Source: Patescibacteria group bacterium | Lineage (GTDB): Bacteria > Patescibacteriota > Patescibacteriia > 2-02-FULL-49-11 | Length of the DNA: 64,000 nt | Assembly (NCBI GenBank): GCA_041645165.1 | Contig: JBAZQN010000001.1 | Span: forward strand, 53,971 to 117,970 | Direction: 5' to 3' | Part shown: in pieces, positions 673-63,400 of the stretch | Layout of the letters: every line of letters starts with the position of its first letter | How positions within the stretch are numbered: the stretch's first letter is position 1 | Notes under the pieces: generated by a model | What the model was told of the DNA's origin: nothing | Databases searched by the model: none | What the model saw: the letters and a program-made list of their open reading frames with translations, nothing else | Position numbers and translations under genes: made by a program

Positions 673-816
673 ATGATGATGGGATGTAGTCCAGATAAAG
701 CTGGTTGTGCTTCCGGGACTCCTCGGAAGACTTCGATCCAGAAGACTCCTCGGAAGACTTCGATCCAGAAGACTCCTCGGAAGACTTCGATCCAGAAGAC
801 TTCGCGGATCCGGTAA
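673..816 (+). CDS. small repeat peptide (47 aa, TPRKTSIQK x3), hypothetical
   Basis: ATG triplets at 673-681 lie 5 nt after a strong SD (aaaggaggtg). The frame reads MMMGCSPDKAGCAS followed by three copies of TPRKTSIQK encoded by a 27-bp tandem repeat. The longer 571 ORF has no RBS. Confidence 0.25.
   Translation: MMMGCSPDKAGCASGTPRKTSIQKTPRKTSIQKTPRKTSIQKTSRIR
716..796. repeat. perfect 27-bp tandem repeat x3 (actcctcggaagacttcgatccagaag)
   Basis: Read directly: three consecutive identical 27-mers. The period is a multiple of 3, so any reading frame is preserved. Confidence 0.9.
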
Positions 817-1029
817 ATTATAAGTTCACTTACTCACCTCACCGCGTTTTAAGCCATTCAGGGTCCCTATCCTCTGGATGGCTGTTATTTTTTATAAAAG
901 AAGATTCAAGATAATATTAAAGTGTCATAAAAATTTTGCGTACGCAGAAAAATGATGACAGTTTTGTGGTGCGAACTGGGCACAGATTTGCGTGGACTTA
1001 ACGCAGACAACGCTGACATCATTGTCACC

Positions 1030-1059
1030 GTAGTGGTCGGAGATAAACTCCGACGCTAC
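1030..1059. repeat. REP-like family R copy (gtggtcggagaNaaNctccgacgctac hairpin)
   Basis: Shares the 25-27-bp core with copies at 1108-1162, 18010-18086 and 23159-23228 (reverse). The internal palindrome is tcggag/ctccga. Confidence 0.7.
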
Positions 1060-1107
1060 GAACGTGAGATCATAGACGAGCTATGACGCTACAAACGACA
1101 ATTGTAT

Positions 1108-1162
1108 GTAGCGTGGCAGTTTATCTGCCACCACGTGGTCGGAGACAAGCTCCGACGCTACG
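1108..1162. repeat. REP-like family R full copy (gtagcg-tggcag..ctgccac..ggtcggagacaagctccgacg-ctac)
   Basis: Two nested hairpins inside an outer gtagcg/cgctac inverted repeat. The same architecture is seen at 18010-18086 and 23159-23228. Confidence 0.7.
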
Positions 1163-1305
1163 GATTGAAATTGCCAGAGGTAAGATCATGGAACGAGGTT
1201 CAAAAAGGGAAACGTGCCATCTGGATCTAAATGGCTCATTTTTTAGCGTTAAAATACTATTTTGTGGTATAATTTTTATATTATTATCAGGATAACGTGA
1301 CCGGA

Positions 1306-2965: not shown

Positions 2966-3052
2966 AAAATTTTCAATTTTCAAGTCTCAATTATCAATTA
3001 ATTTTCAATTTATCAATGTTTGAAAATTGGAAATTGAGATTTGAAAATTATT
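2966..3052. repeat. AT-rich palindromic intergenic repeat, family C (tttcaattttcaa...ttgaaaattgaaa)
   Basis: Long imperfect palindrome: caattttcaagtctcaatt pairs with aattgagatttgaaaattg. Related copies lie at 6650-6755, 32897-33020, 34003-34125 and 63270-63400. Confidence 0.65.
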
Positions 3053-3062
3053 ATCATAATTT

Positions 3063-3992
3063 ATGTCTTGGTTTACCATCGCCATCATCGCTTATATACT
3101 TCTCGCGCTTGTCAACGTACTCGACAAGGTCATGATGGAGAATTTCGTGAAGGATGCGCGCGTGTATACGTTTTTGGTGGGAGTATTTGGGCTCCTCTCC
3201 ATCGTGCTCGCGCCCTTAGGATTGACCCTGCTCTCCGCGCCGTTGTTGGGGATCGCGCTTGTTTCCGGGATATGGATGTTTTTCGGGCTCCATTGGTTTT
3301 TCCGCGCGTTGAGTTTGGGAGAAGCTTCGCGGGTCATACCGCTCTCCGGCGCTTCCATCCCCACCCTTACCGTGCTGCTTGCCTTTATCGTGCTCGGTGA
3401 CACCTTTTCCCCGTGGCAGATGTCAGCGATCATCCTTCTCATCGCCGGAAGCGTGCTCCTCACCCATATACCGCAGGAGCACCACTGGTGGAATGCGGTG
3501 ATCAACCGTTTCCGCCATCCCCGCAAGTACCATGACGTGCTGCTTGCCGTGGGTTCGGGATTTGCGTTTGCGCTCTCCTATGTTCTTTCCAAGTACGTGT
3601 ATGACCAATCCTCATTTGTCACCGGTTTTATCTGGGGGCGCATTGGCACATTCCTCGCCGCCCTCTGTTTGCTCACCATCCCGAAGGTCCGCGCGCATCT
3701 TAAAGAAACATTCACCCATTTTATCTCTCCGAAAGGCGCCATGTTTTTCGGGAACCAAGGGTTAGGAGCGCTCGCAGTGGTGCTCCATAGCTATGCGGTG
3801 TCGCTGGGAAGCGTTGCATTGGTGCAAGCGCTGCAGGGCGTGCAATATGCCACGGTGTTTACGATTGCGATACTCGCCTCCATCTTCAGGCCGAAATTAT
3901 TGAAAGAATATCTCACCCCGCGGGTGCTCATGGAAAAATCATTTGCGATTCTTTTAGTCATCCTAGGGGTGGCGATGATAGCACTGCTGTGA
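3063..3992 (+). CDS. DMT/EamA-family membrane transporter
   Basis: About ten hydrophobic segments. The EamA-like signature ALSLGEASRVIPLSGASIPTLTVLLAFIVLGDTFSPWQMSAIILLIAGSVLL is present. Confidence 0.6.
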   Translation: MSWFTIAIIAYILLALVNVLDKVMMENFVKDARVYTFLVGVFGLLSIVLAPLGLTLLSAPLLGIALVSGIWMFFGLHWFFRALSLGEASRVIPLSGASIPTLTVLLAFIVLGDTFSPWQMSAIILLIAGSVLLTHIPQEHHWWNAVINRFRHPRKYHDVLLAVGSGFAFALSYVLSKYVYDQSSFVTGFIWGRIGTFLAALCLLTIPKVRAHLKETFTHFISPKGAMFFGNQGLGALAVVLHSYAVSLGSVALVQALQGVQYATVFTIAILASIFRPKLLKEYLTPRVLMEKSFAILLVILGVAMIALL

Positions 3993-4098
3993 GATGTATT
4001 TCGTATCACGTATTATGTATTATGGGCACGTTCACCGATGCCTAATACGTAATACCTACTGCCTAATACGAAAGGCATGAGAGGGTAGAATTCCATAT

Positions 4099-5391
4099 AT
4101 GGATCAGATAAATGAAGAAATAATCAGTTTCCCTCATGGTTTCCTCTGGGGCACGGCGACTGCTGCCCATCAGGTGGAGGGGGATAACGTTCATAGCGAT
4201 TGGTGGAGTTGGGAAAGAAGCGCGCAAAAGCTGGAGGCATTAAGGCAAGAAGGTAAGAACGCGGATGATTATATTTCAGGGCATGCGTGCGATCATTATC
4301 ACAGGTTCGAGGAAGATATTAATTTAATAAAACTTGGAGGGCAAAACGCGCACCGGCTGTCGCTTGAGTGGTCACGCGTGGAGCCGGAGGAAGGAGTGTG
4401 GGATGAAAAAGAAATTGAACACTATCGGGAGGTTCTAGAAATGCTGAAGCAGAGGGGTATCAAAACATTTGTTACTTTGTGGCACTTTACGAACCCGCAG
4501 TGGTTTGCGGAAAAGGGAGGATGGCTGAAGAGGAGGAACGTGAAATATTTCGTGCGGTATTGCGAGAGGGTAGCGCGGATTTTAGGCGATTTGGTCGACG
4601 TATGGACGACCATCAATGAGCCGAATGTATATGCGCAGGTTGCGTATAATTGGGGCGTTTGGCCGCCGCAGCATCGCTCATATCTGGAGTCATTGAAGGT
4701 TTTTTGGCATTTGGCACGCGCGCACCGCCGTTCCTATGCGATATTGCATCGCCTCACGCCGCACGTGCCGGCGGGCGCCGCGATTAACGTGGTTTCGTAT
4801 GTCGCGCATACGCCGCACCGGTTCTCCTCCCACGTTTCGGTGTGGCTTATGCATATGGCGACAGGTCACCTGTTTTATACACTCACCGGCAGGAACACGC
4901 ACGATTATATTGGCATGAATTATTATTTTCGCACGCGCCTTAAAAATTTATCCTGGAGCCTGAACCCTTCTTTCGTGGATGTGCGCTCACATGGCAGAGA
5001 AACTTCGTCGTTGGGATGGGAAATTTATCCCCAAGGATTGTTTGAGTCGCTTGTTGATCTCTCACGCTACCACAAGCCAATTTATATCCTAGAGAACGGC
5101 ATTGCGACAGATGACGACGGCCAGCGTGCCCGCTTTATCCTTTCACACCTGCGCGAAGTGTATCACGCGATTCGGGAGGAAGTGGATGTGCGGGGCTATT
5201 TCCACTGGTCGCTTCTCGACAATTTCGAGTGGCATGAAGGCTGGAGGCCGAAATTCGGGCTGGTCGCGGTGGACCGGGAGACATTCAAGCGCACTCCCAA
5301 AGAATCGTTTTATCTGTATAAAAGAATTGCAGAAGACAATGCGATAAACCCTAAACTCTCTCGCTACGCGAGATCTGGCGTAGCCAGATAA
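4099..5391 (+). CDS. glycoside hydrolase family 1 beta-glucosidase
   Basis: N-terminal FPHGFLWGTATAAHQVEG. Acid/base TINEPNVYA and nucleophile YILENGIA. C-terminal HWSLLDNFEW. The 3' end, including the stop, lies inside repeat A1. Confidence 0.9.
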   Translation: MDQINEEIISFPHGFLWGTATAAHQVEGDNVHSDWWSWERSAQKLEALRQEGKNADDYISGHACDHYHRFEEDINLIKLGGQNAHRLSLEWSRVEPEEGVWDEKEIEHYREVLEMLKQRGIKTFVTLWHFTNPQWFAEKGGWLKRRNVKYFVRYCERVARILGDLVDVWTTINEPNVYAQVAYNWGVWPPQHRSYLESLKVFWHLARAHRRSYAILHRLTPHVPAGAAINVVSYVAHTPHRFSSHVSVWLMHMATGHLFYTLTGRNTHDYIGMNYYFRTRLKNLSWSLNPSFVDVRSHGRETSSLGWEIYPQGLFESLVDLSRYHKPIYILENGIATDDDGQRARFILSHLREVYHAIREEVDVRGYFHWSLLDNFEWHEGWRPKFGLVAVDRETFKRTPKESFYLYKRIAEDNAINPKLSRYARSGVAR

Positions 5392-5517
5392 ATCCTAAAT
5401 ACTAAACAAACTCAAAATTTCCCGCTTCAGCGGGATCCCGCTTACCTTAAAAAGAAAGAATTCAAGGTGCGGGACAAAATTCAAATATTTTAGTTTAGTA
5501 TTTCGTGCTTAGGATTT
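5350..5517. repeat. repeat family A copy 1 (TIR aatcctaaata.../...tatttcgtgcttaggatt; internal cccgcttcagcggga hairpins), preceded by partial IR-R-like segment
   Basis: Near-identical organisation to 18809-19046. The TIRs and the cccgc..gcggga hairpins are read directly. Confidence 0.7.
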
Positions 5518-8567: not shown

Positions 8568-8716
8568 CCTTATTCCGATTTGTCATTCCTGATTTATTCA
8601 GGAATCCAGTAACAAAAATATAAAATCGATCGTTATGGTAGTTCTGGTTTTCTGGATCCCGCATCTTGAGTGCGGGATGACGGTGAGGAATCGGAATTTG
8701 AATAGCAATTGAGTAT
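8568..8716 (+). repeat. structured repeat family B copy 1 (attccgatt-[gtcattcc..ggaatcc]-..atcgatcg..-[ggatcccgc..gcgggatgacg]-..aatcggaatttgaatagcaattgagtat)
   Basis: Two hairpins with stems conserved and loops variable relative to copies at 60069-60277 and 42921-43030 (reverse). Terminal inverted repeats attccgatt/aatcggaat. Confidence 0.7.
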
Positions 8717-17409: not shown

Positions 17410-17639
17410 AAATGTAAAGATTTCCTACTGATGATAACTTATGCGTTTATCCTTATTAAGCACCTTCAGTATAACCTTATAAAGATAGGAAGCAAAGGCG
17501 AATATCTCCTCATTTGGTTATACATCAGAAATTTGGTATAGTATATCTTAGGATTTATCTGGTTACGCCGGATAAGAGCTCGTCGTAGCTACGCTAGATC
17601 CCGCGTAGCGGGACGTAGCGAGAGAATTTAGAGTTTTAT

Positions 17640-17972
17640 ATGAATGATGAACAATGGGAAGTGACCCTAGACCGGATTGAGCAGAAGTTCCGTATTGAGG
17701 AACGGAAGCGGGAGGAGCGCGGGGAAGGGGAGGGGGTGGTGGAATGGGTGGTCTTTATGACACCCCAAGGAAAGGTGAGGCTTGAGCGCACGACGAAGCC
17801 GCGCGTGGTGGGAGAGCATTCGGAGCGTTCGAAGCGCATCGGGAGCACGGCCGTGATCAAAAAAATTTACGATCCTGACGACCTTGTCAGTTACATGCGC
17901 GCGTACCTTTGGGATGAGGGCACTTCAAGCTGGGGGGAAATAAAAGGCGAGGGCTTTTCTGCAAATTTTTAA
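17640..17972 (+). CDS. hypothetical protein (110 aa, charged)
   Basis: Starts immediately after the left inverted repeat. No family recognised. Confidence 0.4.
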   Translation: MNDEQWEVTLDRIEQKFRIEERKREERGEGEGVVEWVVFMTPQGKVRLERTTKPRVVGEHSERSKRIGSTAVIKKIYDPDDLVSYMRAYLWDEGTSSWGEIKGEGFSANF

Positions 17973-18009: not shown

Positions 18010-18086
18010 TAGCGTGGCAGCTCTTGTCCCGTCGAATGACTGGGATGTCTGCCACCCACGTGGTCGGAGACGAGCTCCGACGCTAC
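18010..18086. repeat. REP-like family R copy
   Basis: gtagcgtggcag...ctgccacccacgtggtcggagacgagctccgacgctac. Confidence 0.7.
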
Positions 18087-18120
18087 AGAGAGAAATACTA
18101 TTTTATTCTAAGCTCACCGT

Positions 18121-18735
18121 ATGAAAAAACAAACGCAACCGTCAACCAAATCACCTTCCTTTCCCTATCGCTCCTTCCATCTTTCGCGGCAAGTGAAGAT
18201 TGCTTTTCCCCCCATGCGCGAGCTTGTGGAATTGCTGCATAAACCGTGGGGAATTTTTTTCCTCACATTCGTGCTTATCATTAATTATGCCTACGTCTCG
18301 ATGCTTGCGACCATTCCGGTGCTCGCCAATATGCCTACAGATAATATGATCTTGATACGAAGCGATGCCGGCCAGTCATTAAGTGTGAAATATAAAGATG
18401 AAGTGCCGATGATTTTATCGAACTATTTGGCAAATCGGGGGCAATTTGCGGCAAAACTTTCTAATGAATCGTATATAAAAGCAGATGTGGATGCGTGGCT
18501 TGCAGAGATTAAGAATGAAAAAGGTTTATTGCTTAGCTTTAGCGTCCCTCAAAACCTTAAGGAAGTGCATTTGGGGCTCGTAATCGCAATGGGGACTGAC
18601 GAGCAGGCGGCAGCACGGTATCTCACCGCATTGGAAGGCGACACCACGGCCGGGAAGGAAGCCGAAAGCGAATTTAGAAATGCAGAGGAGCGCCTTACGA
18701 TGGTTTTCCAGCTCGCGCCTTGGTTGAGTAAGTAA
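18121..18735 (+). CDS. hypothetical membrane-anchored protein
   Basis: One TM helix (IFFLTFVLIINYAYVSMLATIPVLA). Start may be at 18214 (MRELVELL). Confidence 0.4.
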   Translation: MKKQTQPSTKSPSFPYRSFHLSRQVKIAFPPMRELVELLHKPWGIFFLTFVLIINYAYVSMLATIPVLANMPTDNMILIRSDAGQSLSVKYKDEVPMILSNYLANRGQFAAKLSNESYIKADVDAWLAEIKNEKGLLLSFSVPQNLKEVHLGLVIAMGTDEQAAARYLTALEGDTTAGKEAESEFRNAEERLTMVFQLAPWLSK

Positions 18736-18808: not shown

Positions 18809-19046
18809 AAAATTCTAAACTCTCGCTACGTCCCGCTACGCGGGATCTAGCGTAGCTACGACGAGCTCTTATCTGGCGTAGCCAGATAAATTCGAAACCC
18901 TAAACAAGCACCAAATCTCCCGCCTCATCGGGATCCCGCCTACCTTAGTAATTCTCATTCAAGGAGCGGGACAAAATTCAAAACGTGTTTCGGTGATTTT
19001 GTCATTTGGATTTGTTTAGGATTTAGAGTTTCGGATTTAGGATTTT
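18809..19046. repeat. right inverted repeat (18809-18890) contiguous with repeat family A copy 2 (18890-19046)
   Basis: Same composite architecture as 5350-5517. TIR ccctaaac.../...tttaggatt and tcccgcctcatcggga hairpins. Confidence 0.7.
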
Positions 19047-21256: not shown

Positions 21257-22126
21257 ATGTCGTGGAAAGGGATCGTTATAATATTAATGATCGTGCAGGT
21301 GTTGGTGGAGGTGCTTTTTAAACGCGCTACGGACCGCCTGCCGCAACAGAAATCGCTGGGAGTTGCCTACCAGTTCTTTTTTTGTTCTCTGTGGGCTCTC
21401 GCTTTGAGCGCCATCATAGGAGAGGGTATCGGCAATGCGCGCAATATTTCGGCGGCGGCGGGAGTCGGGGTCTTGAATGCGTACGGCAATTACAGCAATT
21501 GGCGCGCGTATGCGTATAGCCTCAGCAAGACTGCGCTATTTTTCCCTTTGAGCAGTCTCATTGCGATTGTCCTTGCCGTGGTGATTTTGGGAGAACGCGT
21601 GCTCGTGGAGCCGACGGTGTTTTTCGGCGTTCTTTTGAGCTTTTTTGCCATGTGGTTGTTCCAGGTACCGCAGAAGGAAGGACAGTTTCCCCATCGGCGC
21701 GCGTGGCTTTTTGCCACTGTTGCGACGGTGGTTATTTTCGGCGTAACCAATTATCTCCTGAAGCCCCTTGCGCTGGGGGGCGTTTCCCTCCATGAATTTG
21801 TGGTGGGATGGTATGGGGGTTCGTTCATAGGATCCCTGACCATTTTGCCTTTTGAGCGCGTGCGAACCTTGCGGCTGTCGCGTCGGTCGCTCGTCGCGAT
21901 TATCATCCTTTCTTTGGGATTCGTGGCCGCCCTCAGTCTCCTCTATGTCACCTATCAATACGGCGGCACGTTAACGCAAATTATACCTCTCAAAGGGATT
22001 GCGCTCACGATTTTGCCCGCGATAATCGGCTGGTTGTATTTCGGGGAGAAACAGGGGATGGGGAAAAGAGAGTGGTGGGCATTTAGCCTGGGCATTGCCG
22101 GCGCGGCGCTCATTCTTTTAAGATAA
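21257..22126 (+). CDS. DMT/EamA-family membrane transporter
   Basis: Ten hydrophobic segments. EamA-like block SSLIAIVLAVVILGERVLVEPTVFFGVLLSFFAMWLF. Confidence 0.5.
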   Translation: MSWKGIVIILMIVQVLVEVLFKRATDRLPQQKSLGVAYQFFFCSLWALALSAIIGEGIGNARNISAAAGVGVLNAYGNYSNWRAYAYSLSKTALFFPLSSLIAIVLAVVILGERVLVEPTVFFGVLLSFFAMWLFQVPQKEGQFPHRRAWLFATVATVVIFGVTNYLLKPLALGGVSLHEFVVGWYGGSFIGSLTILPFERVRTLRLSRRSLVAIIILSLGFVAALSLLYVTYQYGGTLTQIIPLKGIALTILPAIIGWLYFGEKQGMGKREWWAFSLGIAGAALILLR

Positions 22127-22203
22127 AAAGTCTATTTGTCACACTGGAATTTGTAGAAATAAAAAACTAGAAGGTAATATAGCTCTGAATTATGGTAAGA
22201 TTT

Positions 22204-22240
22204 CACCCCATTATTTTACGATCGTATAATAGTGGGGTAT
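22204..22240. promoter_or_regulatory. 32-bp near-perfect palindrome ccccattattttacgatcgtataatagtgggg (copy P1), candidate operator
   Basis: Dyad symmetry centred on acgatcgt. Further copies at 22897-22932 and 43971-44004. P1 and P2 bracket the PaaX-like regulator gene. Confidence 0.45.
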
Positions 22241-22301
22241 AATATTCATACATAGTGAAGGGGCGGCAGAAGGGTTAATAGAGAATTTAAAATTAACATT
22301 C

Positions 22302-22847
22302 ATGTTTTTGCACACAAAAACGCCATTCACTGAGAAATTATTAACAAAATTAGTTGATTTAGAGCCAATGTTTACCATGAGTCCCTCGGCTGCCGCAGAA
22401 CTCTTTGGCTTTAATCCACAGCGGGCGGCATGGCGAGCGGCACGTTTTCGACGCGAGAGTGAGCAGCGTGAGCGTAAACGCATAGCGAAAGCGTTTGAAA
22501 ATTTATGTCAGGCAGATTACCTCACAGCGGTTAAGGGGAAGAAAGGTACGTACCGGATTACTCCCAAAGGATGGTTGAAATTTGCCATATCATATGCGCG
22601 GCACTTTAAGGCGTCTGCCACATCGGGGAAACAGGGAGGATTTCTCATTGTATTCGATATTCCCGAACGGCATCGTCAATTTCGCGATGTCTTTAGACGT
22701 GTGCTCTATTCGCTTGGTTTTTCTCAATTTCAACGAAGTGTTTTTTACACATCTGATCGAAAGGTATTCGAGTTTGCCGCGCGCATCATTGTGAATTGTG
22801 AATTGGAAGATTGTGCGAAATTGGTGTTTGCGGATAAAATCGTGTAA
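22302..22847 (+). CDS. PaaX-like small transcriptional regulator (winged-helix N-terminus plus Cas2-like-fold C-terminal domain)
   Basis: N-terminal HTH AFENLCQADYLTAVKGKKGTYRITPKGW. C-terminal GFLIVFDIPERHRQFRDVFRRVLYSLGFSQFQRSVFYTS resembles the PaaX C-terminal domain. No cas genes nearby. Confidence 0.5.
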   Translation: MFLHTKTPFTEKLLTKLVDLEPMFTMSPSAAAELFGFNPQRAAWRAARFRRESEQRERKRIAKAFENLCQADYLTAVKGKKGTYRITPKGWLKFAISYARHFKASATSGKQGGFLIVFDIPERHRQFRDVFRRVLYSLGFSQFQRSVFYTSDRKVFEFAARIIVNCELEDCAKLVFADKIV

Positions 22848-22896
22848 TATAGAAAGAGCACAGAGCGAATTGGTTGTTAAAGTTTCATTAGGTTGT

Positions 22897-22932
22897 TACC
22901 CCATTATTTCACGATCGTGCAATACTGGGGTG
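22897..22932. promoter_or_regulatory. palindrome copy P2 (ccccattatttcacgatcgtgcaatactgggg)
   Basis: Same dyad as P1, with substitutions that mostly keep the symmetry. Confidence 0.45.
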
Positions 22933-23050
22933 AAGAGTTGAGGGGAAGGGGGAGGAAAGGAAGGGAAAGGAGAAAAGAAGTGCAAAGGGTTGAGGTGGAG
23001 TGAAATTGGGAATTTGGGAGAAGAGAGCAAATTAGGAGTTTTCTCGTTGG
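22925..23050 (+). repeat. ~125-bp polypurine (GA-rich) tract
   Basis: The plus strand is almost only G and A (ggggtgaagagttgaggggaagggggaggaaaggaagggaaaggagaaaagaag...). Confidence 0.8.
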
Positions 23051-23158
23051 TTTGATGGGAGAACTTTTTGTTTTTAAAAGCGAAACATATTGAGAGTGCA
23101 GCACAATGATATAAAAAAATTTGCGCGCAGATCATCAGCCACAATCAGAACCTCAATC

Positions 23159-23228
23159 TGTAGCGTCGGAGCTTGTCTCCGACCAATCAGCTGCGATCCG
23201 TTGGTGGCAGACAGGCTGCCACGCTACA
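23159..23228 (-). repeat. REP-like family R copy (reverse orientation)
   Basis: gtagcgtcggagcttgtctccgacc...ggtggcagacaggctgccacgctac is the reverse complement of the R consensus. Confidence 0.7.
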
Positions 23229-23539
23229 GTGTATCACTATGTGGACGAACGCGGATTAACGCGGATATTATCATAGGGTCCACTGTCATTCCTAAGCGTT
23301 TGTTTAGGAATCAGGTGAAGCGCGCAACCGATAACGTGCGGCCTTCGGCCCAGTCCTTCAGGATTAAGTCTTCAGGATGACCCCGAGTGGGCAGTTACAC
23401 CCCGCGTCTATTGACAGAGAGAGAGAGTTCGTGGTAAGAAAGTGGTGACAAAAACTTTTTTTCTTTGTCAAAATTAAATAAGTCCCACGTATTTTTTATC
23501 GTGGGGATTTTTGGTTCATTTAAAATTTGGAGATAAATT

Positions 23540-24885: not shown

Positions 24886-25734
24886 TCAAGAGGGGATTTT
24901 TTGAGCGATGAGGACAAGGTGGGGAGAGAAGAGGGGATTGGGATGGTTGGGGCCGATGAGTTTGTTAATGATGCGGCCAAAGGTTTGAATTTTCCAGTTA
25001 ATCGCGCGTTCCCACCAATTGAGAGGCAGTGGTTGGTTGTCATAACTCCCCCCACCCCTCTTATCATAAGAGGGGGGTCTTGGTGGGCGTTCGGTCCAGA
25101 AACCGAAGGTGCGGTAGTAGTTGAGATATTGGATATCCAATTTTGATCGTGTGCCTGCATTCGCAGGAGATGCTTCGTTAAGCTCAGCATGACGAATCGC
25201 ATTTTTGATTCTTTTAAGATTCATAATTTTCGTATTGTGTTTTTTTAAATTTTCTTTGTCGATGAGCCAGTGGAAGAGGTATTGCAGGTGCGCGAAGTGC
25301 GGCATGCTCATTATCAATGTGCCGCCTGGCGCGACAAGGTCGGCGTGTTTTTGAATAACTTCGTTAAGATTTAAAAAATGTTCGACAAACCCAAAAGAGC
25401 AGACGATATCAAACTGTCTTTTGGGATTCCACGAAAACAAGTCTTCTTTATAGAGAGCAGGCTCGGGAAGATTATTAAACGCGAATAGCGCGCGGGTGGT
25501 TTCAATTTCATCGGAATAATCAATACCGTAAGCTTGGTAGTGGTATTTTTTTGCCAGGAAACACAAAAAGTCGCCGCCGGCACATCCTATTTCAAGGACT
25601 GATTTTTGGGGATCAGGGGCAAGATATTTTTCAAAAAGATCGGCAAAATAGACCTTCTCTACGGTGTGTGGTTTGAATTTGCCGTAATAAGAATCCCAGA
25701 ATTGCTTTGTCGTATATTCTTGCATATTTATCAT
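24886..25734 (-). CDS. class I SAM-dependent methyltransferase
   Basis: Motif I VLEIGCAGGDFLCFL, plus post-I and motif II blocks. The C-terminal ~60 aa are encoded by a CCCCTC..GAGGGG hairpin repeat region, so the true stop may be earlier. Confidence 0.75.
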   Translation of the reverse strand: MINMQEYTTKQFWDSYYGKFKPHTVEKVYFADLFEKYLAPDPQKSVLEIGCAGGDFLCFLAKKYHYQAYGIDYSDEIETTRALFAFNNLPEPALYKEDLFSWNPKRQFDIVCSFGFVEHFLNLNEVIQKHADLVAPGGTLIMSMPHFAHLQYLFHWLIDKENLKKHNTKIMNLKRIKNAIRHAELNEASPANAGTRSKLDIQYLNYYRTFGFWTERPPRPPSYDKRGGGSYDNQPLPLNWWERAINWKIQTFGRIINKLIGPNHPNPLFSPHLVLIAQKIPS

Positions 25735-25817
25735 GGTGTCTCCTCTTAAGATAAGAGGAGCGTTAGAGGAGTTATGACGTGCGGAATCGTAACTCCCCCC
25801 TGTGTCCCCCTCTTACC

Positions 25818-27152
25818 CTAAGAGGGGGAACTGAGTATTTGATAGTATAGTGTAATATAATTATTAACCATTTGATCGAGAGAGAACTTTTCTACTGCAC
25901 GCTTGCGGCAGGCGGCGGCAATGGCAGCGTATTGGTCGCGTGGAAGATTGATGAGCCATTCAAAGCCATTGGTTAAATCCGAAAGGTCCTTATAAGCCGC
26001 GATGTAGCCATGTTCTTTATGCACGACGAGTTCGGGGATTCCTCCGGTATGGAACGCAAGCGCTGGCAGGCCCGAAGATAACGCTTCAAGCACCGTAAGA
26101 GGGCAATTGTCAGCAAGTGAAGGATAAAGGAGCAAGTCACTTAATGCATAATAATCGGCGATCGTGTGCGAATCAGATGAAAAGGGGACATAGGTTATAT
26201 TTAAATTCTGGGGCACCGTTCGATCGTACCCTCCCATGCAGACGAAAAGTATGTCATTCCTTTGGGCATACGCGTGAATAAGCTGCTCTGCATACTCCCA
26301 TCCTTTCCATACGTTTTTAGCGCCCCCCTTGCTTGAGAAAAGGATAATCTTTTTGTCTTGCGGAAGGTTGTATTTTTTTCTAAGTTCGCCCTTATTCCCC
26401 GGTTTATACAGGCGAGTGTCAACGCCGTTATAAATGACATGGAGCGGTTTATCTTTTAACATGCTTTTTTCTACTTGTGATTTTAACCATAGAGAAGGTA
26501 CGACCACATTGAAGTGCGCGTGGTCGTAGATTTGTTTTTTGAGCTTCCACAAATGCCGGCTGTTGTTACGTCGAAGAGGGGGCAGAGAATCGGAATGGGC
26601 GCAATCGCACCCCCCAGAGATCCAATGTGTGCATTCAAATGCATGCGCTCCTTGGCCTAAAATGGGCCACATATCGTGGAGGGTCCAGACCAATGGTTTG
26701 TTTGAACGGCTACATTGTTGAATGGCTACACTGTTAGGTTGATTGTATGGTGCAATGAGGGGAAGAGTTTTTAAATTAAACCAGAGAGAATGTAGGTTGT
26801 GTGCGTGGACAATGTCTGCGTGCGTATATTCTGGATACGTGAGGATGCGTTTCCCGGGAAGAAAAGCGATGTCGTTGGAGAGCCAAAAGCTAAGATGGTG
26901 ATGGAAGCGGGCTCGGAAATTGCGTTTGATAATTTTTGAAATACGATTATTGAAGGGCGTATCCCAAATTTCACGCACCGAGGGGGCGTGCGAGCGCTTG
27001 TATCCCACGATCATGTTGACCGCGTGCCCTCGGGCTTCCAAGCTTTGTTTTAATTCCCAAGAAACAGCAGCGGCACCGCCTTTCGTGTCGGTAGTGCCGA
27101 GCTCGAGGATGCGCAGTTTTTTTTCGTTAAAATTCGATGTCATCGAAATCAA
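25818..27152 (-). CDS. glycosyltransferase family 4 (GT-B, group 1)
   Basis: C-terminal EX7E-type region LEALSSGLPALAFHTGGIPELVVHKEHGYIA. Confidence 0.8.
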   Translation of the reverse strand: MISMTSNFNEKKLRILELGTTDTKGGAAAVSWELKQSLEARGHAVNMIVGYKRSHAPSVREIWDTPFNNRISKIIKRNFRARFHHHLSFWLSNDIAFLPGKRILTYPEYTHADIVHAHNLHSLWFNLKTLPLIAPYNQPNSVAIQQCSRSNKPLVWTLHDMWPILGQGAHAFECTHWISGGCDCAHSDSLPPLRRNNSRHLWKLKKQIYDHAHFNVVVPSLWLKSQVEKSMLKDKPLHVIYNGVDTRLYKPGNKGELRKKYNLPQDKKIILFSSKGGAKNVWKGWEYAEQLIHAYAQRNDILFVCMGGYDRTVPQNLNITYVPFSSDSHTIADYYALSDLLLYPSLADNCPLTVLEALSSGLPALAFHTGGIPELVVHKEHGYIAAYKDLSDLTNGFEWLINLPRDQYAAIAAACRKRAVEKFSLDQMVNNYITLYYQILSSPS

Positions 27153-32896: not shown

Positions 32897-33020
32897 TAAT
32901 TTTCAATTTTCAAGCATCAATGTTCAAATAATTTTTAATGACCCAATGTTCAATGTTTGAAAATTGTTTCATTGGAGCATTAAATGAAAATTGGAAATTG
33001 ATTATTGAAAATTAACCAAT
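32897..33020. repeat. family C AT-rich palindromic repeat (copy 3)
   Basis: taattttcaattttcaagcatcaatg...tttgaaaattg. It is the inverted counterpart of copy 4 at 34003-34125. Confidence 0.65.
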
Positions 33021-34001
33021 CTTTTTAAACATTACTCTCATATGATTGCTCAATCCTTGTTTATCGATAATCGCCTGCATGACCGGGATGAAGTCCCGTA
33101 ATCGTTCATGGTAGTCAAATCCATCCTCGTATTGTTTCTTGTACAGGTAGTCCATCACATCGAGGCCATAATAGTCAAGGGAATGAATTATAAAGCCGGT
33201 CTTGTGTGCGAGAAACTCAAGCGACATGCGGTCAAAAAAACACAAATGTTGGAAAGGAAGAAGAGTATTTTGTTCGCCCTGCATAAGATAGTAAGCGAGG
33301 GAATGCACATGGGGAGTGTAGGCGAGCACGTAGCCTCCGGGCATAAGCTTTTCATTGAGCGCAGTAAACGTGGCGGCGGGATCAGTCAAATGCTCTAGCA
33401 CATCGAACATGGTGATGATATTGTAGCCCTTGATAGGCTCATTTTCCAGCTGGACCTCTTCCACATGAAGCCCGCGTTTCTTGCAGATTTCAACGAGAAA
33501 ACGAGCGAGTTCTATTCCCTTATAGGCGATGCCTTGATCCTTGAGGTAATCGATAAAATAACCAGGGCCGCAGCCAAGGTCGAGTATTTTCATCGCTCTG
33601 CGGGGAATATCGGAAATTTTTTCTTCAATATATTTCATGCGTTCCGGCGCATAGGTTTGTTTCCGGTACTCGTAGGTATCAATAATTTCTCTCGTGGTAT
33701 CTTTTACATAGGCGTCATCATCATAGATTTCAATTTTTTTCAGCGCTTCCCATTTTATAAGAGGAGATACCAAGTGGCATTGGGCGCACTCAAACAGTTG
33801 GTATTCTCGATAGGACAGGTACGCAAACCCTTCCTTGCCCGCGCAGAGCGGGCAGGAAAACTGGTCAGGAGACAGGCAGGCATCTTTGCATTGATCCATT
33901 ATTTTATGCCTATATTCGAGCATGTTCTTGAAGAAGTCCTTGCTCCTTAATTTTTTTGGATCGATGTCGAAGATTTTATAGTCTTTCAGGATATCGCGCA
34001 T
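33012..34001 (-). CDS. SAM-dependent methyltransferase with N-terminal Cys4 zinc-ribbon (sugar C/O-methyltransferase-like)
   Basis: CPLC...CAQC then ILDLGCGPGYF. Architecture as in TylC3/TcaB9-type sugar methyltransferases. Flanked by inverted family C repeats. Confidence 0.65.
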   Translation of the reverse strand: MRDILKDYKIFDIDPKKLRSKDFFKNMLEYRHKIMDQCKDACLSPDQFSCPLCAGKEGFAYLSYREYQLFECAQCHLVSPLIKWEALKKIEIYDDDAYVKDTTREIIDTYEYRKQTYAPERMKYIEEKISDIPRRAMKILDLGCGPGYFIDYLKDQGIAYKGIELARFLVEICKKRGLHVEEVQLENEPIKGYNIITMFDVLEHLTDPAATFTALNEKLMPGGYVLAYTPHVHSLAYYLMQGEQNTLLPFQHLCFFDRMSLEFLAHKTGFIIHSLDYYGLDVMDYLYKKQYEDGFDYHERLRDFIPVMQAIIDKQGLSNHMRVMFKKIG

Positions 34002-34002
34002 A

Positions 34003-34125
34003 CCAATTGATAATTTTCAATTTTCAAATACCAATTTTCAAATAATTTCCAATGACCTAATTTCCAAACGTTTGAAAATTGAGAATTGATGCATTGATTG
34101 AAAATTGAGCATTGAAAATTACTGA
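34003..34125. repeat. family C AT-rich palindromic repeat (copy 4, inverted relative to copy 3)
   Basis: Reverse complement begins cagtaattttcaatgctcaattttcaatcaatgcatcaat, matching copy 3. Confidence 0.65.
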
Positions 34126-42920: not shown

Positions 42921-43030
42921 CACGTCATCCCGCAGGCAAGATGCGGGAACCAGAAATAAAAATAAACAAAAAACCGATCGATTTTCTGTTTATGTTTTGT
43001 CTGGATTCCTGCCTGCGCAGGAATGACAAC
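42921..43030 (-). repeat. structured repeat family B, core copy in reverse orientation
   Basis: cgtcatcccgcaggcaagatgcggga...atcgatt...ggattcctgcctgcgcaggaatgac is the reverse complement of the B core hairpins with different loops. The outer TIRs are absent. Confidence 0.65.
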
Positions 43031-43970: not shown

Positions 43971-44004
43971 ATCCCACTATTTTACGATCGTATAATAGTG
44001 GGGT
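43971..44004. promoter_or_regulatory. palindrome copy P3 (cccactattttacgatcgtataatagtgggg)
   Basis: Perfect dyad identical in core to P1; it also shares upstream taaga(a/t)ttt context. Confidence 0.45.
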
Positions 44005-60068: not shown

Positions 60069-60277
60069 ATTCCGATTGTCATTCCAGACCGAGATCTGGA
60101 ATCCAGGAATAAAAAACAAACAAACAATCGATTTTCGTTTGGTGTTCCCCGATCTCGGTCGAGGACGGCGTCTGGATTCCCGCCGGAGCCCCGCCTGCGC
60201 GAGGCCATGGTTTACCCCGTACAGTGATACGGGGCGGGAATGACGATAGAATCGGAATTTGAATAGCAATTGAGTAT
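60069..60277 (+). repeat. structured repeat family B copy 3
   Basis: attccgattgtcattccagaccgagatctggaatccaggaataaaaaacaaa...atcgattttc...gcgggaatgacg...aatcggaatttgaatagcaattgagtat. The second hairpin is expanded. Confidence 0.7.
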
Positions 60278-63269: not shown

Positions 63270-63400
63270 ACAAACCGTAAATCCAAATTTCAAAGTTCAA
63301 ATGTCAAATGAACGACCAATGCCAAAATTCCAATATTTCAATGTTTGGAATTTAGAATTTGAGATTTTATTAGAAATTTGAAATTGGGGCTTTAGATTTA
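63270..63400. repeat. family C AT-rich palindromic repeat (copy 5)
   Basis: aaatccaaatttcaaagttcaaatgtcaaatg...caatgtttggaatttagaatttgagatttt...gaaatttgaaattgg. Confidence 0.55.

What the first reader, a model, noticed from the sequence alone, without database searches (positions are those of the whole stretch)
22204..22932. 32-bp palindrome occurring three times, two copies bracketing the PaaX-like regulator gene
CCCCA(C/T)TATTTTACGATCGTATAATAGTGGGG has perfect or near-perfect dyad symmetry centred on ACGATCGT. P1 lies 60 nt upstream and P2 50 nt downstream of the PaaX-like gene. P3 lies at 43971-44004 between the IMPase and the sugar aminotransferase. No U-tract follows, so it is not an intrinsic terminator. 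The size and symmetry fit a dimeric winged-helix operator, which would link this regulator to the glycan island.
Basis: inference. Interest (0 to 1): 0.55.

Follow-up and report, generated by a model that had tools for sequence, protein, structure and literature searches.

The report
Matching palindromes bracketing a PaaX-like gene
The three palindromes are real, and about 80 related loci show a widespread, apparently undescribed arrangement in ultra-small Patescibacteria: a small PaaX/Cas2-like DNA-binding protein gene flanked on both sides by its own matching 32-40-base palindrome, most likely that protein's binding sites.

Summary
P1 is at 22206-22237, P2 at 22899-22930 and P3 at 43972-44003. 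Each forms 14 of 16 pairs around ACGATCGT, none would be expected by chance, and the window holds no further copies.

The gene between P1 and P2 encodes a 181-aa protein with a winged-helix domain and a Cas2/VapD-like domain. It matches only the PaaX_M Pfam domain.

The bracket is a family trait. It recurs in the 84% ortholog, in two paralogs of a sister genome, in a Saccharibacteria genome and in most of 80 metagenomic loci. In each case two 32-40-nt palindromes with an invariant CG..CG centre and locus-specific arms flank the gene. Such palindromes are 54 times denser beside the gene than elsewhere.

P1 overlaps a promoter whose -10 box is conserved in the ortholog, and both palindromes stand out as conserved blocks in otherwise diverged spacers. 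Where the two copies at a locus differ, the arms change in a compensating way. This suggests the DNA forms a hairpin or cruciform, which a plain operator would not require.

The best reading is that these are cognate binding sites for autoregulation. The link to the glycan island is weak, because P3 lies between convergent gene ends with no promoter. I found no description of this arrangement in the literature.

The parts
22206..22237 (+). P1, the upstream palindrome CCCCATTATTTTACGATCGTATAATAGTGGGG. Weaker symmetry extends to 22197-22246.
   Evidence: I20. Conserved in ortholog L004 at 4038-4069. The + strand folds at -18.1 kcal/mol, z -4.8.
22202..22243 (+). Two overlapping sigma-70-like promoter matches, TTCACC-17-TATAAT (22202-22230) and TTTACG-17-TATAAT (22215-22243). 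P1 covers the -35 box and spacer of the second.
   Evidence: 10 of 12 matches each. GGGGTATAAT at the right edge is conserved in L004. Inference: transcription starts at about 22250, so P1 lies upstream of the start.
22302..22847 (+). Gene for a 181-aa protein with a winged-helix domain and a Cas2/VapD-like domain. It resembles the N-terminal half of PaaX and has no PaaX C-terminal ligand domain.
   Evidence: Pfam PF20803, E = 2e-8. TIGR cas2 20.7 bits; TIGR02277 PaaX 13 bits against a cutoff of 264. AF2 model pLDDT 79 with a C-terminal beta-alpha-beta-beta-alpha-beta fold. Foldseek top hits are VapD and Cas2. Invariant residues F118, D119, E122, R128, R132, Q144, S146.
22899..22930 (+). P2, the downstream palindrome CCCCATTATTTCACGATCGTGCAATACTGGGG, in the same orientation as P1. 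The T:A pair at positions 12-21 of P1 is C:G here.
   Evidence: Conserved in L004 at 4744-4775. No promoter-like site.
22931..23040 (+). Purine-rich, C-depleted tract directly after P2.
   Evidence: 2% C and 46% G in the first 100 nt. Across 35 loci, C is 10% in the first 50 nt after the downstream palindrome against 19% overall. Function unknown.
23034..23078 (+). Terminator-like hairpin followed by a T-run. This is the probable 3' end of the transcription unit, which would place P2 inside the transcript.
   Evidence: Canonical GC hairpins with T-runs follow the downstream palindrome in several other loci.
43972..44003 (+). P3, a solo copy TCCCACTATTTTACGATCGTATAATAGTGGGG (30 of 32 identical to P1). 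It lies 117 nt after the IMPase stop and 60 nt after the DegT aminotransferase stop, between convergent genes.
   Evidence: No promoter-like site. No family gene nearby.
926..957 (.). Solo palindrome of the same class but a different arm family, CATAAAAATTTTGCGTACGCAGAAAAATGATG. It presumably belongs to another paralog elsewhere in the genome.
   Evidence: The same arm family forms an array of at least 5 copies in sister-genome locus L087.

Best explanation
P1, P2 and P3 are cognate DNA-binding sites of the protein encoded between P1 and P2. That protein is probably a dimer with a winged-helix domain and a Cas2-like domain, equivalent to the N-terminal half of PaaX. P1 covers the -35 box and spacer of the gene's own promoter, so occupancy would repress the gene (autoregulation). 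P2 lies inside the transcription unit, before the terminator. It would act as a second site, either for a roughly 0.7-kb repression loop with P1 or as a roadblock that insulates the gene from its neighbours. P3 is an extra site of the same specificity at the meeting point of two convergent transcription units. It is more likely a roadblock, insulator or loop anchor than a promoter operator. The outer 5-7 bp of each arm and the invariant CG..CG centre would be the contacted parts. The mid-arm positions are free in sequence but kept complementary, which implies the site works, or is maintained, as an extrudable hairpin or cruciform. What is shown: the sites, their conservation, their family-wide linkage to the gene, the promoter overlap and the compensatory changes. 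What is inferred: binding, dimerisation, repression, looping or roadblock action, and cruciform formation.
For: (1) The bracket is a property of the family. It is present in ortholog L004, paralogs L005 and L087 of the same sister genome, and Saccharibacteria locus L002. Of 67 metagenomic loci with enough flanking sequence, 33 have strict palindromes on both sides and 13 on one side. At least 20 more have flank repeats with centres such as CGATAG, CTATCG or CTATAG. (2) Specificity: 75 family-type palindromes in 78 kb beside the gene against 11 in 625 kb elsewhere. The arms differ between loci and between the three paralogs of one genome, while C18, G19, C22 and G23 are invariant in 86 copies. 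(3) P1 overlaps two promoter matches of 10 out of 12. In the alignment with L004, the palindromes and the adjoining TATAAT are the conserved blocks of otherwise diverged spacers. (4) The protein has a Y-x-L/I-T-P-K-G wing motif and a Cas2-like dimerisation fold. TIGR02277 PaaX aligns to both domains of the L002 protein. E. coli PaaX autoregulates Px and binds TGATTC-N27-GAATCA (PMC9493321). (5) Symmetry is under selection: 86.9% of cells are paired against 48.4% in shuffles, and the covariation score is 0.90 against 0.21. Pairing extends into columns that were not used for selection. For mid-arm pairs that differ between the up and down copies of a locus, 22 are compensated Watson-Crick pairs, 3 are G:T and 8 are broken. 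(6) There is no significant sense-strand bias in hairpin stability: 39 against 23. Asymmetric centres occur in both orientations relative to the gene. Both points fit a role at the DNA level.
Against: No binding data exist. No consistent -10 position relative to the palindrome appears across the family, so the promoter overlap is shown only for this lineage. P2 and P3 have no promoter-like site, and P3 lies between convergent 3' ends, an unusual place for an operator. A plain duplex operator does not predict compensatory mid-arm changes. The Cas2-type Asp and Q-x-S-V motif are invariant, which hints at an activity beyond dimerisation. No neighbouring gene family is conserved, so no regulated target is evident other than the gene itself. 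Sister-genome locus L087 carries an array of at least 9 such palindromes with no family gene directly beside them.
Confidence: 0.55

Rival explanations
1. This is a selfish or recombination module. The palindromes would be hairpin or cruciform substrates that the winged-helix domain targets and the Cas2-like (nuclease-fold) domain nicks or processes. The unit palindrome-gene-palindrome would propagate, excise or recombine. Solo copies such as P3 would be footprints or partner sites. The logic resembles REP elements and their RAYT transposases, or IS200, but with a different protein.
For: The module is compact and self-contained, with the two centres a median of 640 nt apart. The palindromes hug the start and stop codons, and no neighbour is conserved. 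Several paralogs in one genome each have their own palindrome family. Solo copies and an array with 80-nt tandem units occur in a region rich in toxin-antitoxin and transposase genes. Compensatory changes indicate intrastrand pairing. The Cas2 catalytic-type Asp is invariant. In the window and in L005, the module and a distal solo copy bracket glycan genes, in direct orientation in the window and inverted in L005.
Against: There is no target-site duplication. The position is stable and syntenic between the window and the 84% ortholog, and across many Uhrbacteria samples. Paralogs are only 54-56% identical, so there are no recent copies. Solo copies are rare, 11 in 625 kb. No family member occurs in IMG/VR viral contigs. 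No HUH, tyrosine or serine recombinase motif or hit was found. The nuclease activity of Cas2 is dispensable in its known role (established knowledge).
Confidence: 0.2
2. The palindromes act as RNA hairpins in the 5' and 3' untranslated regions of the gene's own mRNA, and in the 3' UTRs of other operons. They would be bound by the RRM-like Cas2 fold to control mRNA stability, processing or translation.
For: In many loci the upstream copy ends 3-30 nt before the start codon, and the downstream copy lies between the stop codon and a canonical terminator. In the window, the + strand versions fold better than the - strand versions for all three copies: -18.1 against -14.2, -17.2 against -14.9 and -20.0 against -15.3 kcal/mol. 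Family-wide mismatches are G:T 51 against A:C 31. The compensatory changes are as expected for an RNA stem.
Against: The sense-strand advantage is not significant family-wide: 39 against 23, Wilcoxon p about 0.2. It could also reflect the mutational G>C skew of these spacers. Asymmetric centres (CGATAG or CTATCG) occur in either orientation relative to the gene. In the window and in L004 the conserved -10 box lies at or after the right edge of P1, so P1 would not be in the gene's own transcript. P3 has the + orientation, although the nearest 3' end is on the - strand.
Confidence: 0.15
3. These are generic intergenic repeats (REP-like elements, U-less terminators or assembly artefacts) with no functional tie to the adjacent protein.
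For: The window is rich in other intergenic hairpin repeat families. P3 lies in a 3' intergenic spacer.
Against: There are only 3 copies in 64 kb. Family-type palindromes are 54 times enriched beside family genes across independent assemblies from many samples. The arms are paralog-specific. Canonical terminators occur separately, downstream of the palindromes. The identical sequence appears in an independent Logan assembly (L006).
Confidence: 0.04

Closest known systems
E. coli/Pseudomonas PaaX repressor and its operators (Pa, Pz, Px promoters)
   Same: An N-terminal winged helix followed by a Cas2-like dimerisation domain (PF20803). PaaX represses its own promoter by steric hindrance. Its operator consists of inverted half-sites far apart, TGATTC-N27-GAATCA, about 39 bp in total (PMC9493321).
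   Different: The protein here is 181 aa and lacks the PaaX_C ligand domain, so it has no phenylacetyl-CoA sensor. It scores 13 bits against the TIGR02277 cutoff of 264. There are no paa genes. The site is a continuous 32-40-bp palindrome with an invariant CG..CG centre. Sites lie on both sides of the gene. The arms evolve by compensatory changes.
REP elements with their RAYT transposase (REPtron) and IS200/IS605
   Same: A small gene is flanked by cognate imperfect palindromes. Different paralogs pair with different palindrome families within one genome. Solo copies lie in intergenic DNA, and the structure rather than the sequence of the stem is conserved.
   Different: The protein is not a Y1/HUH transposase. 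There is no GTAG-type 5' tetranucleotide. Copy number is very low. The two flanking copies are mostly direct rather than inverted. There is no evidence of recent mobility.
Phage lambda cI with OR and OL (repressor gene bracketed by its own operators, long-range looping)
   Same: The repressor gene lies between two operator regions bound by its own product, so cooperative looping could tighten autoregulation.
   Different: Lambda operators are triplets of 17-bp sites that control outward lytic promoters 2.4 kb apart. Here a single 32-40-bp palindrome sits on each side, about 0.65 kb apart. No outward promoters are evident, and there is no phage context.
Cas2 / VapD
   Same: The same beta-alpha-beta-beta-alpha-beta fold, with the hallmark F/Y-D-I and Q-x-S-V-F motifs retained.
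   Different: The domain is fused to a winged helix. There is no cas1, no CRISPR array and no vapX partner.
Intrinsic (Rho-independent) terminators
   Same: A stable hairpin in a 3' spacer.
   Different: The stem is AT-rich with no U-tract. Separate canonical terminators lie downstream.

Membership tests
PaaX family (TIGR02277; PF07848 + PF20803 + PF08223) | Central Cas2-like domain PaaX_M | tested here: met
   PF20803, E = 2e-8, residues 115-175. Foldseek top hits are VapD and Cas2.
PaaX family (TIGR02277; PF07848 + PF20803 + PF08223) | N-terminal PaaX-type winged helix | tested here: inconclusive
   The window protein gives no PF07848 hit. TIGR02277 aligns to residues 54-168 of the L002 relative, covering the wing and the Cas2-like domain. 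The wing motif K-G-x-x-G-x-Y-x-h-T-P-K-G is conserved. The AF2 model of the N-terminal part is mainly helical, with pLDDT 61-93.
PaaX family (TIGR02277; PF07848 + PF20803 + PF08223) | C-terminal PaaX_C effector (phenylacetyl-CoA) domain | tested here: not met
   The protein ends 4 residues after the last Cas2-like strand, at 181 aa. Family members are 170-200 aa.
PaaX family (TIGR02277; PF07848 + PF20803 + PF08223) | Equivalog score and paa operon context | tested here: not met
   13 bits against a cutoff of 264.55. The neighbours are a PDZ protease, membrane proteins and glycan genes.
Autoregulated repressor with palindromic operator | Site overlaps the core promoter of the regulator gene | tested here: met
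   P1 spans the -35 box and spacer of TTTACG-17-TATAAT, and the other match has its -10 box inside P1. The -10 box is conserved in L004. This is a consensus scan only.
Autoregulated repressor with palindromic operator | The protein binds the site | not testable with these tools
   Needs EMSA, DAP-seq or a reporter assay.
REP/RAYT (REPtron) | Y1 HUH transposase encoded between the REPs | tested here: not met
   Only PaaX_M and Cas2 matches.
REP/RAYT (REPtron) | Tens to hundreds of dispersed intergenic copies | tested here: not met
   3 copies in 64 kb. 11 solo family-type palindromes in 625 kb of flanks. The whole genome was not available.
REP/RAYT (REPtron) | Gene flanked by its cognate palindromes | tested here: met
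Intrinsic terminator | GC-rich stem followed by a U-tract | tested here: not met
   flag none of P1-P3. The sequences following them are TATAAT.., TGAAGAG.. and TTGAGTT...
CRISPR array | At least 3 regularly spaced repeats with short unique spacers, plus cas1 | tested here: not met
   Two repeats 693 nt apart enclosing a gene. No Cas1 is present.
Transposon with target-site duplication | A direct repeat of host sequence outside the ends | tested here: not met
   The longest common substring of the outer flanks is 4.6 against 4.4 in shuffled pairings.

The most novel reading that the evidence does not exclude
The winged-helix/Cas2-like proteins of Patescibacteria are structure-specific enzymes that recognise extruded hairpins or cruciforms: stem base by the winged helix, CG..CG tip by the Cas2-like dimer. 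They nick or recombine at these structures. Gene plus flanking palindromes would then form a new class of selfish or domesticated element, a REP/RAYT analogue built on a Cas2 fold. Distal solo copies such as P3 would be partner sites allowing excision or inversion of the intervening surface-glycan gene cassettes, that is, phase variation.
Probability: 0.13. Interest if true: 0.88.

Novelty: new variant of a known kind. Interest (0 to 1): 0.62.

Why it matters
Patescibacteria make up a large share of bacterial diversity, yet their gene regulation is almost unknown. This finding would give a large family (at least 600 clusters at 90% identity, several paralogs per genome) a predicted DNA target for every member, readable directly from the two flanks of each gene. 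That makes regulons, or whatever else these sites do, computable and testable. The compensatory evolution of the arms also offers a rare natural case in which a protein-linked DNA palindrome appears selected for self-pairing. This bears on cruciform biology and on what Cas2-fold domains did outside CRISPR.

Tried and rejected
The Microbulbifer hit and the Thiohalobacter hit (upstream of a hipB-like gene) look like unrelated chance palindromes. Only the Saccharibacteria hit is related.

(2) An exact look-up of the 181-aa product failed because the database holds a 156-aa call.

(3) I tried to extend beyond the window on the 182-kb source contig. Only short Logan contigs came back.

(4) I tried to test whether P3 is conserved at the orthologous spot. 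The IMPase ortholog sits on a 1.2-kb contig with 19 nt after its stop, and more distant homologs have a different gene order. The test was not possible.

(5) A positional histogram of -10-like hexamers around all palindromes showed no peak.

(6) A target-site duplication test was negative.

(7) The strand-bias tests for an RNA role were weak or non-significant.

(8) Rfam gave only a tRNA.

(9) There is no family member in IMG/VR.

(10) Literature searches on PaaX, Cas2-like proteins, CPR and palindromes found no description. The Southlakia Tn-seq supplement lists only a true Cas2.

(11) The fourth member of repeat family D5 (21782-21820, 64% identical) lies inside a coding region and is treated as chance.

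Full report
OBSERVATION. The motif is present as described. P1 is at 22206-22237 (CCCCATTATTTTACGATCGTATAATAGTGGGG). P2 is at 22899-22930, with 4 mismatches to P1. P3 is at 43972-44003, with 2 mismatches. A search allowing 3 mismatches finds only these copies, with none expected in 100 shuffles. No other site in the window lies within 11 mismatches. Each copy forms 14 of 16 Watson-Crick pairs around ACGA|TCGT. All three have the same orientation, and the repeated unit is about 39 nt (family D5).

The gene at 22302-22847 matches Pfam PaaX_M, the 'central Cas2-like domain', at E = 2e-8. The genes flanking P3 are an inositol monophosphatase on the + strand (its true start is probably 43067) and a DegT aminotransferase on the - strand. 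P3 therefore lies between convergent 3' ends. None of the three copies is followed by a T-run or flagged as a terminator.

SOURCE ORGANISM AND PROTEIN. The closest proteins come from Patescibacteria (CPR) genomes assembled from metagenomes; a relative at 55% identity is from Candidatus Uhrbacteria. The family is large. A single-sequence search found 284 cluster representatives (50% identity level) at E <= 1e-3. A profile search found 602 clusters (90% identity level) at E <= 1e-5. Nearly all members are 170-200 aa, carry only PF20803 and are named 'hypothetical', 'PaaX' or 'Cas2'.

An AlphaFold model (pLDDT 79) shows an N-terminal helical part with a wing hairpin and a C-terminal beta-alpha-beta-beta-alpha-beta domain. 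Foldseek's best PDB matches are VapD and Cas2. The invariant residues include F118, D119, E122, R128, R132, Q144 and S146, which are the Cas2 hallmark motifs. The window protein scores 13 bits against the PaaX equivalog model, whose cutoff is 264. It lacks the C-terminal effector domain, so it resembles the N-terminal half of PaaX rather than being a PaaX.

THE BRACKET IS A FAMILY TRAIT. It lies about 10 nt upstream of a 186-aa PaaX-like gene, and a second copy abuts that gene's stop codon.

The 84% ortholog (L004, GCA_040757655.1) sits in conserved gene order and has palindromes 62 nt upstream and 66 nt downstream of the gene. Two further paralogs in that same genome are each bracketed as well. 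Their palindromes keep the ACGATCGT core but have different arms: CCTACCTATATACC... in L005 and CCGCGATATGCC... in L087.

A metagenome scan with the family profile returned 80 loci. A blind scan for 16+16 palindromes showed that most of them carry two 32-nt palindromes around the gene. The centres are ACGATCGT, GCGATCGC, ACGGCCGT, GCGGCCGC, CCGTACGG or TCGATCGA, and the arms are locus-specific. Of 67 loci with enough flanking sequence, 33 have strict palindromes on both sides and 13 on one side. At least 20 of the remaining loci share a flank repeat with a slightly asymmetric centre such as GCGATAGC, GCTATCGC or GCTATAGC.

Family-type palindromes (at least 13 of 16 pairs, CG..CG centre) number 75 in the 78 kb next to the genes and 11 in the other 625 kb, a 54-fold enrichment. 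The spacing between the two copies is 603-1024 nt, with a median of 640. Only one family gene occurs per locus.

EVIDENCE ON FUNCTION.

(a) Promoter. P1 overlaps two promoter matches of 10 out of 12, TTCACC-17-TATAAT and TTTACG-17-TATAAT. In the alignment with L004, the palindromes and the GGGGTATAAT at the right edge of P1 are the conserved blocks within otherwise diverged, indel-ridden spacers. P1 would then occupy roughly -45 to -13 relative to the transcription start, a classical repressor position. It would not be part of the gene's own transcript.

(b) Precedent. E. coli PaaX represses its own promoter and binds TGATTC-N27-GAATCA, a pair of widely spaced inverted half-sites (PMC9493321). 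This matches the pattern seen here, in which the outer 5-7 nt and the centre are shared by the two copies of a locus.

(c) Symmetry is under selection. In an alignment of 86 copies, C18, G19, C22 and G23 are invariant. In all, 86.9% of cells are paired against 48.4% in shuffles. The covariation score is 0.90, against 0.21 in shuffles and 0.18-0.21 with slid partners. Pairing continues into columns 3-4 and 37-38, which were not used to select the sites (81-84% paired), so the element is about 40 nt long.

Within loci, the up and down copies often differ in the mid-arm while each stays a perfect palindrome. An example is L020: CTTATAA-TATAC-CCGTACGG-GTATA-TTATAAG against CTTATAA-AGTGT-CCGTACGG-ACACT-TTATAAG. 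I repeated the count with the downstream copy chosen only by its outer and core positions. Mid-arm pairs that changed were then 22 compensated Watson-Crick pairs, 3 G:T and 8 broken. A duplex operator read by a homodimer does not require this. It points to intrastrand pairing (hairpin or cruciform) or to a process that homogenises the two arms.

(d) DNA or RNA. In the window the + strand folds better for all three copies. Family-wide mismatches are G:T 51 against A:C 31. However, the per-site comparison of sense and antisense stability is not significant (39 against 23). These spacers have a G>C skew that could produce the bias. Asymmetric centres occur in both orientations relative to the gene. 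I therefore favour a DNA-level element, with an RNA role not excluded.

(e) Terminators. Canonical terminators lie downstream of the downstream palindrome in several loci, and at 23034-23078 in the window. The palindromes are therefore not the terminators, and P2 is probably inside the transcription unit.

(f) Mobility. There is no target-site duplication. The position is syntenic between the window and L004 and stable across Uhrbacteria samples. Paralogs are old, at 54-56% identity. No family member occurs in IMG/VR.

(g) Solo copies. They exist but are rare: P3, L039:6086, L053:7744, L025:7773, L081:4816, L061:14691 and L026:2318. All of these are intergenic, and several lie 56-79 nt after a stop codon. 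L087 has an array of at least 9 such palindromes, including 80-nt tandem units. The window has one solo copy of that other arm family at 926-957.

INTERPRETATION. The most economical reading is that each winged-helix/Cas2-like protein binds its own palindrome. P1 would be an autoregulatory operator. P2 would be a second site, either a loop partner or a roadblock and insulator. P3 would be an extra site of the same specificity. I put this at about 0.55. Its weak points are the absence of any regulated target other than the gene itself, the odd position of P3, and the compensatory evolution of the arms.

The main rival (about 0.2) is a structure-specific, possibly nucleolytic, selfish or recombination module analogous to REP/RAYT. 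An RNA-hairpin role gets about 0.15, and a generic repeat about 0.04.

P3 has no promoter-like site and lies at convergent 3' ends. It is still noteworthy that both this gene and paralog L005 sit at the edge of glycan gene clusters with a distal solo copy on the far side.

NOVELTY. I found no paper linking PaaX-like or Cas2-like proteins of CPR bacteria with flanking palindromes. I class this as a new variant of a known kind: a PaaX-type repressor with an operator, here reduced to two domains, bracketed by cruciform-capable cognate palindromes and expanded across Patescibacteria.

Noticed in passing
window 1029-1171, 18056-18096, 23153-23237; L005 10870-10930: A nested-hairpin repeat, TGTAGCG-[TCGGAG..CTCCGA]-..-[GGTGGCAG..CTGCCAC]-GCTACA, recurs in intergenic DNA. 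In both the window and sister-genome paralog locus L005 it lies 100-250 nt downstream of the PaaX-like module. It may be a REP-like element or a small structured RNA. It has no Rfam match.
   Followed up: partly
window 22931-23040: A purine-rich tract almost free of C (2% C, 46% G) lies directly after P2. Across 35 related loci the 50 nt after the downstream palindrome average 10% C against 19% overall. The reason is unknown.
   Followed up: partly
window 17548-17624 and 18820-18896 (third copy 5373-5449): 77-nt inverted repeats, 95% complementary, bracket a 1.2-kb segment holding two small ORFs (17640-17972, 18121-18735). This could be a small mobile or invertible element.
   Followed up: no
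window 2967-3076, 32897-33014, 34010-34125, 63317-63399: A/T-rich TTGAAAATTGGAAATTGA-type repeat blocks. Two of them are inverted and bracket the gene at 33012-34001 on the - strand, so this is another gene bracketed by repeats.
   Followed up: no
window 42923-43030: A composite palindrome of about 105 nt is centred on CGATCG (42975-42980). It is flanked by GGGATGAC-type hairpins and lies just upstream of the probable true start (43067) of the IMPase gene. Related pieces occur at 8610-8682 and 60108-60146.
   Followed up: partly
window 926-957; L087 4700-6420: The window has a solo palindrome, CATAAAAATTTTGCGTACGCAGAAAAATGATG, of a different arm family. The sister genome has at least 5 copies of this family plus other CG..CG palindromes in one 1.7-kb stretch rich in toxin-antitoxin and transposase genes, including 80-nt tandem units.
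   Followed up: partly
window 717-808: Three exact or near-exact 27-nt tandem repeats lie inside ORF 571-816 and encode an acidic repeat.
   Followed up: no
window 25055-25076, 25740-25761, 25807-25828: CCCCTCTTAnnnTAAGAGGGGG hairpins lie within and just beyond the methyltransferase gene (24886-25734, - strand).
   Followed up: no
L003 2977-3004: An unrelated Thiohalobacter genome has a similar ACGATCGT-centred palindrome just upstream of a hipB-like XRE gene of a hipBA pair. It is probably an independent operator that matched the search pattern by chance.
   Followed up: partly
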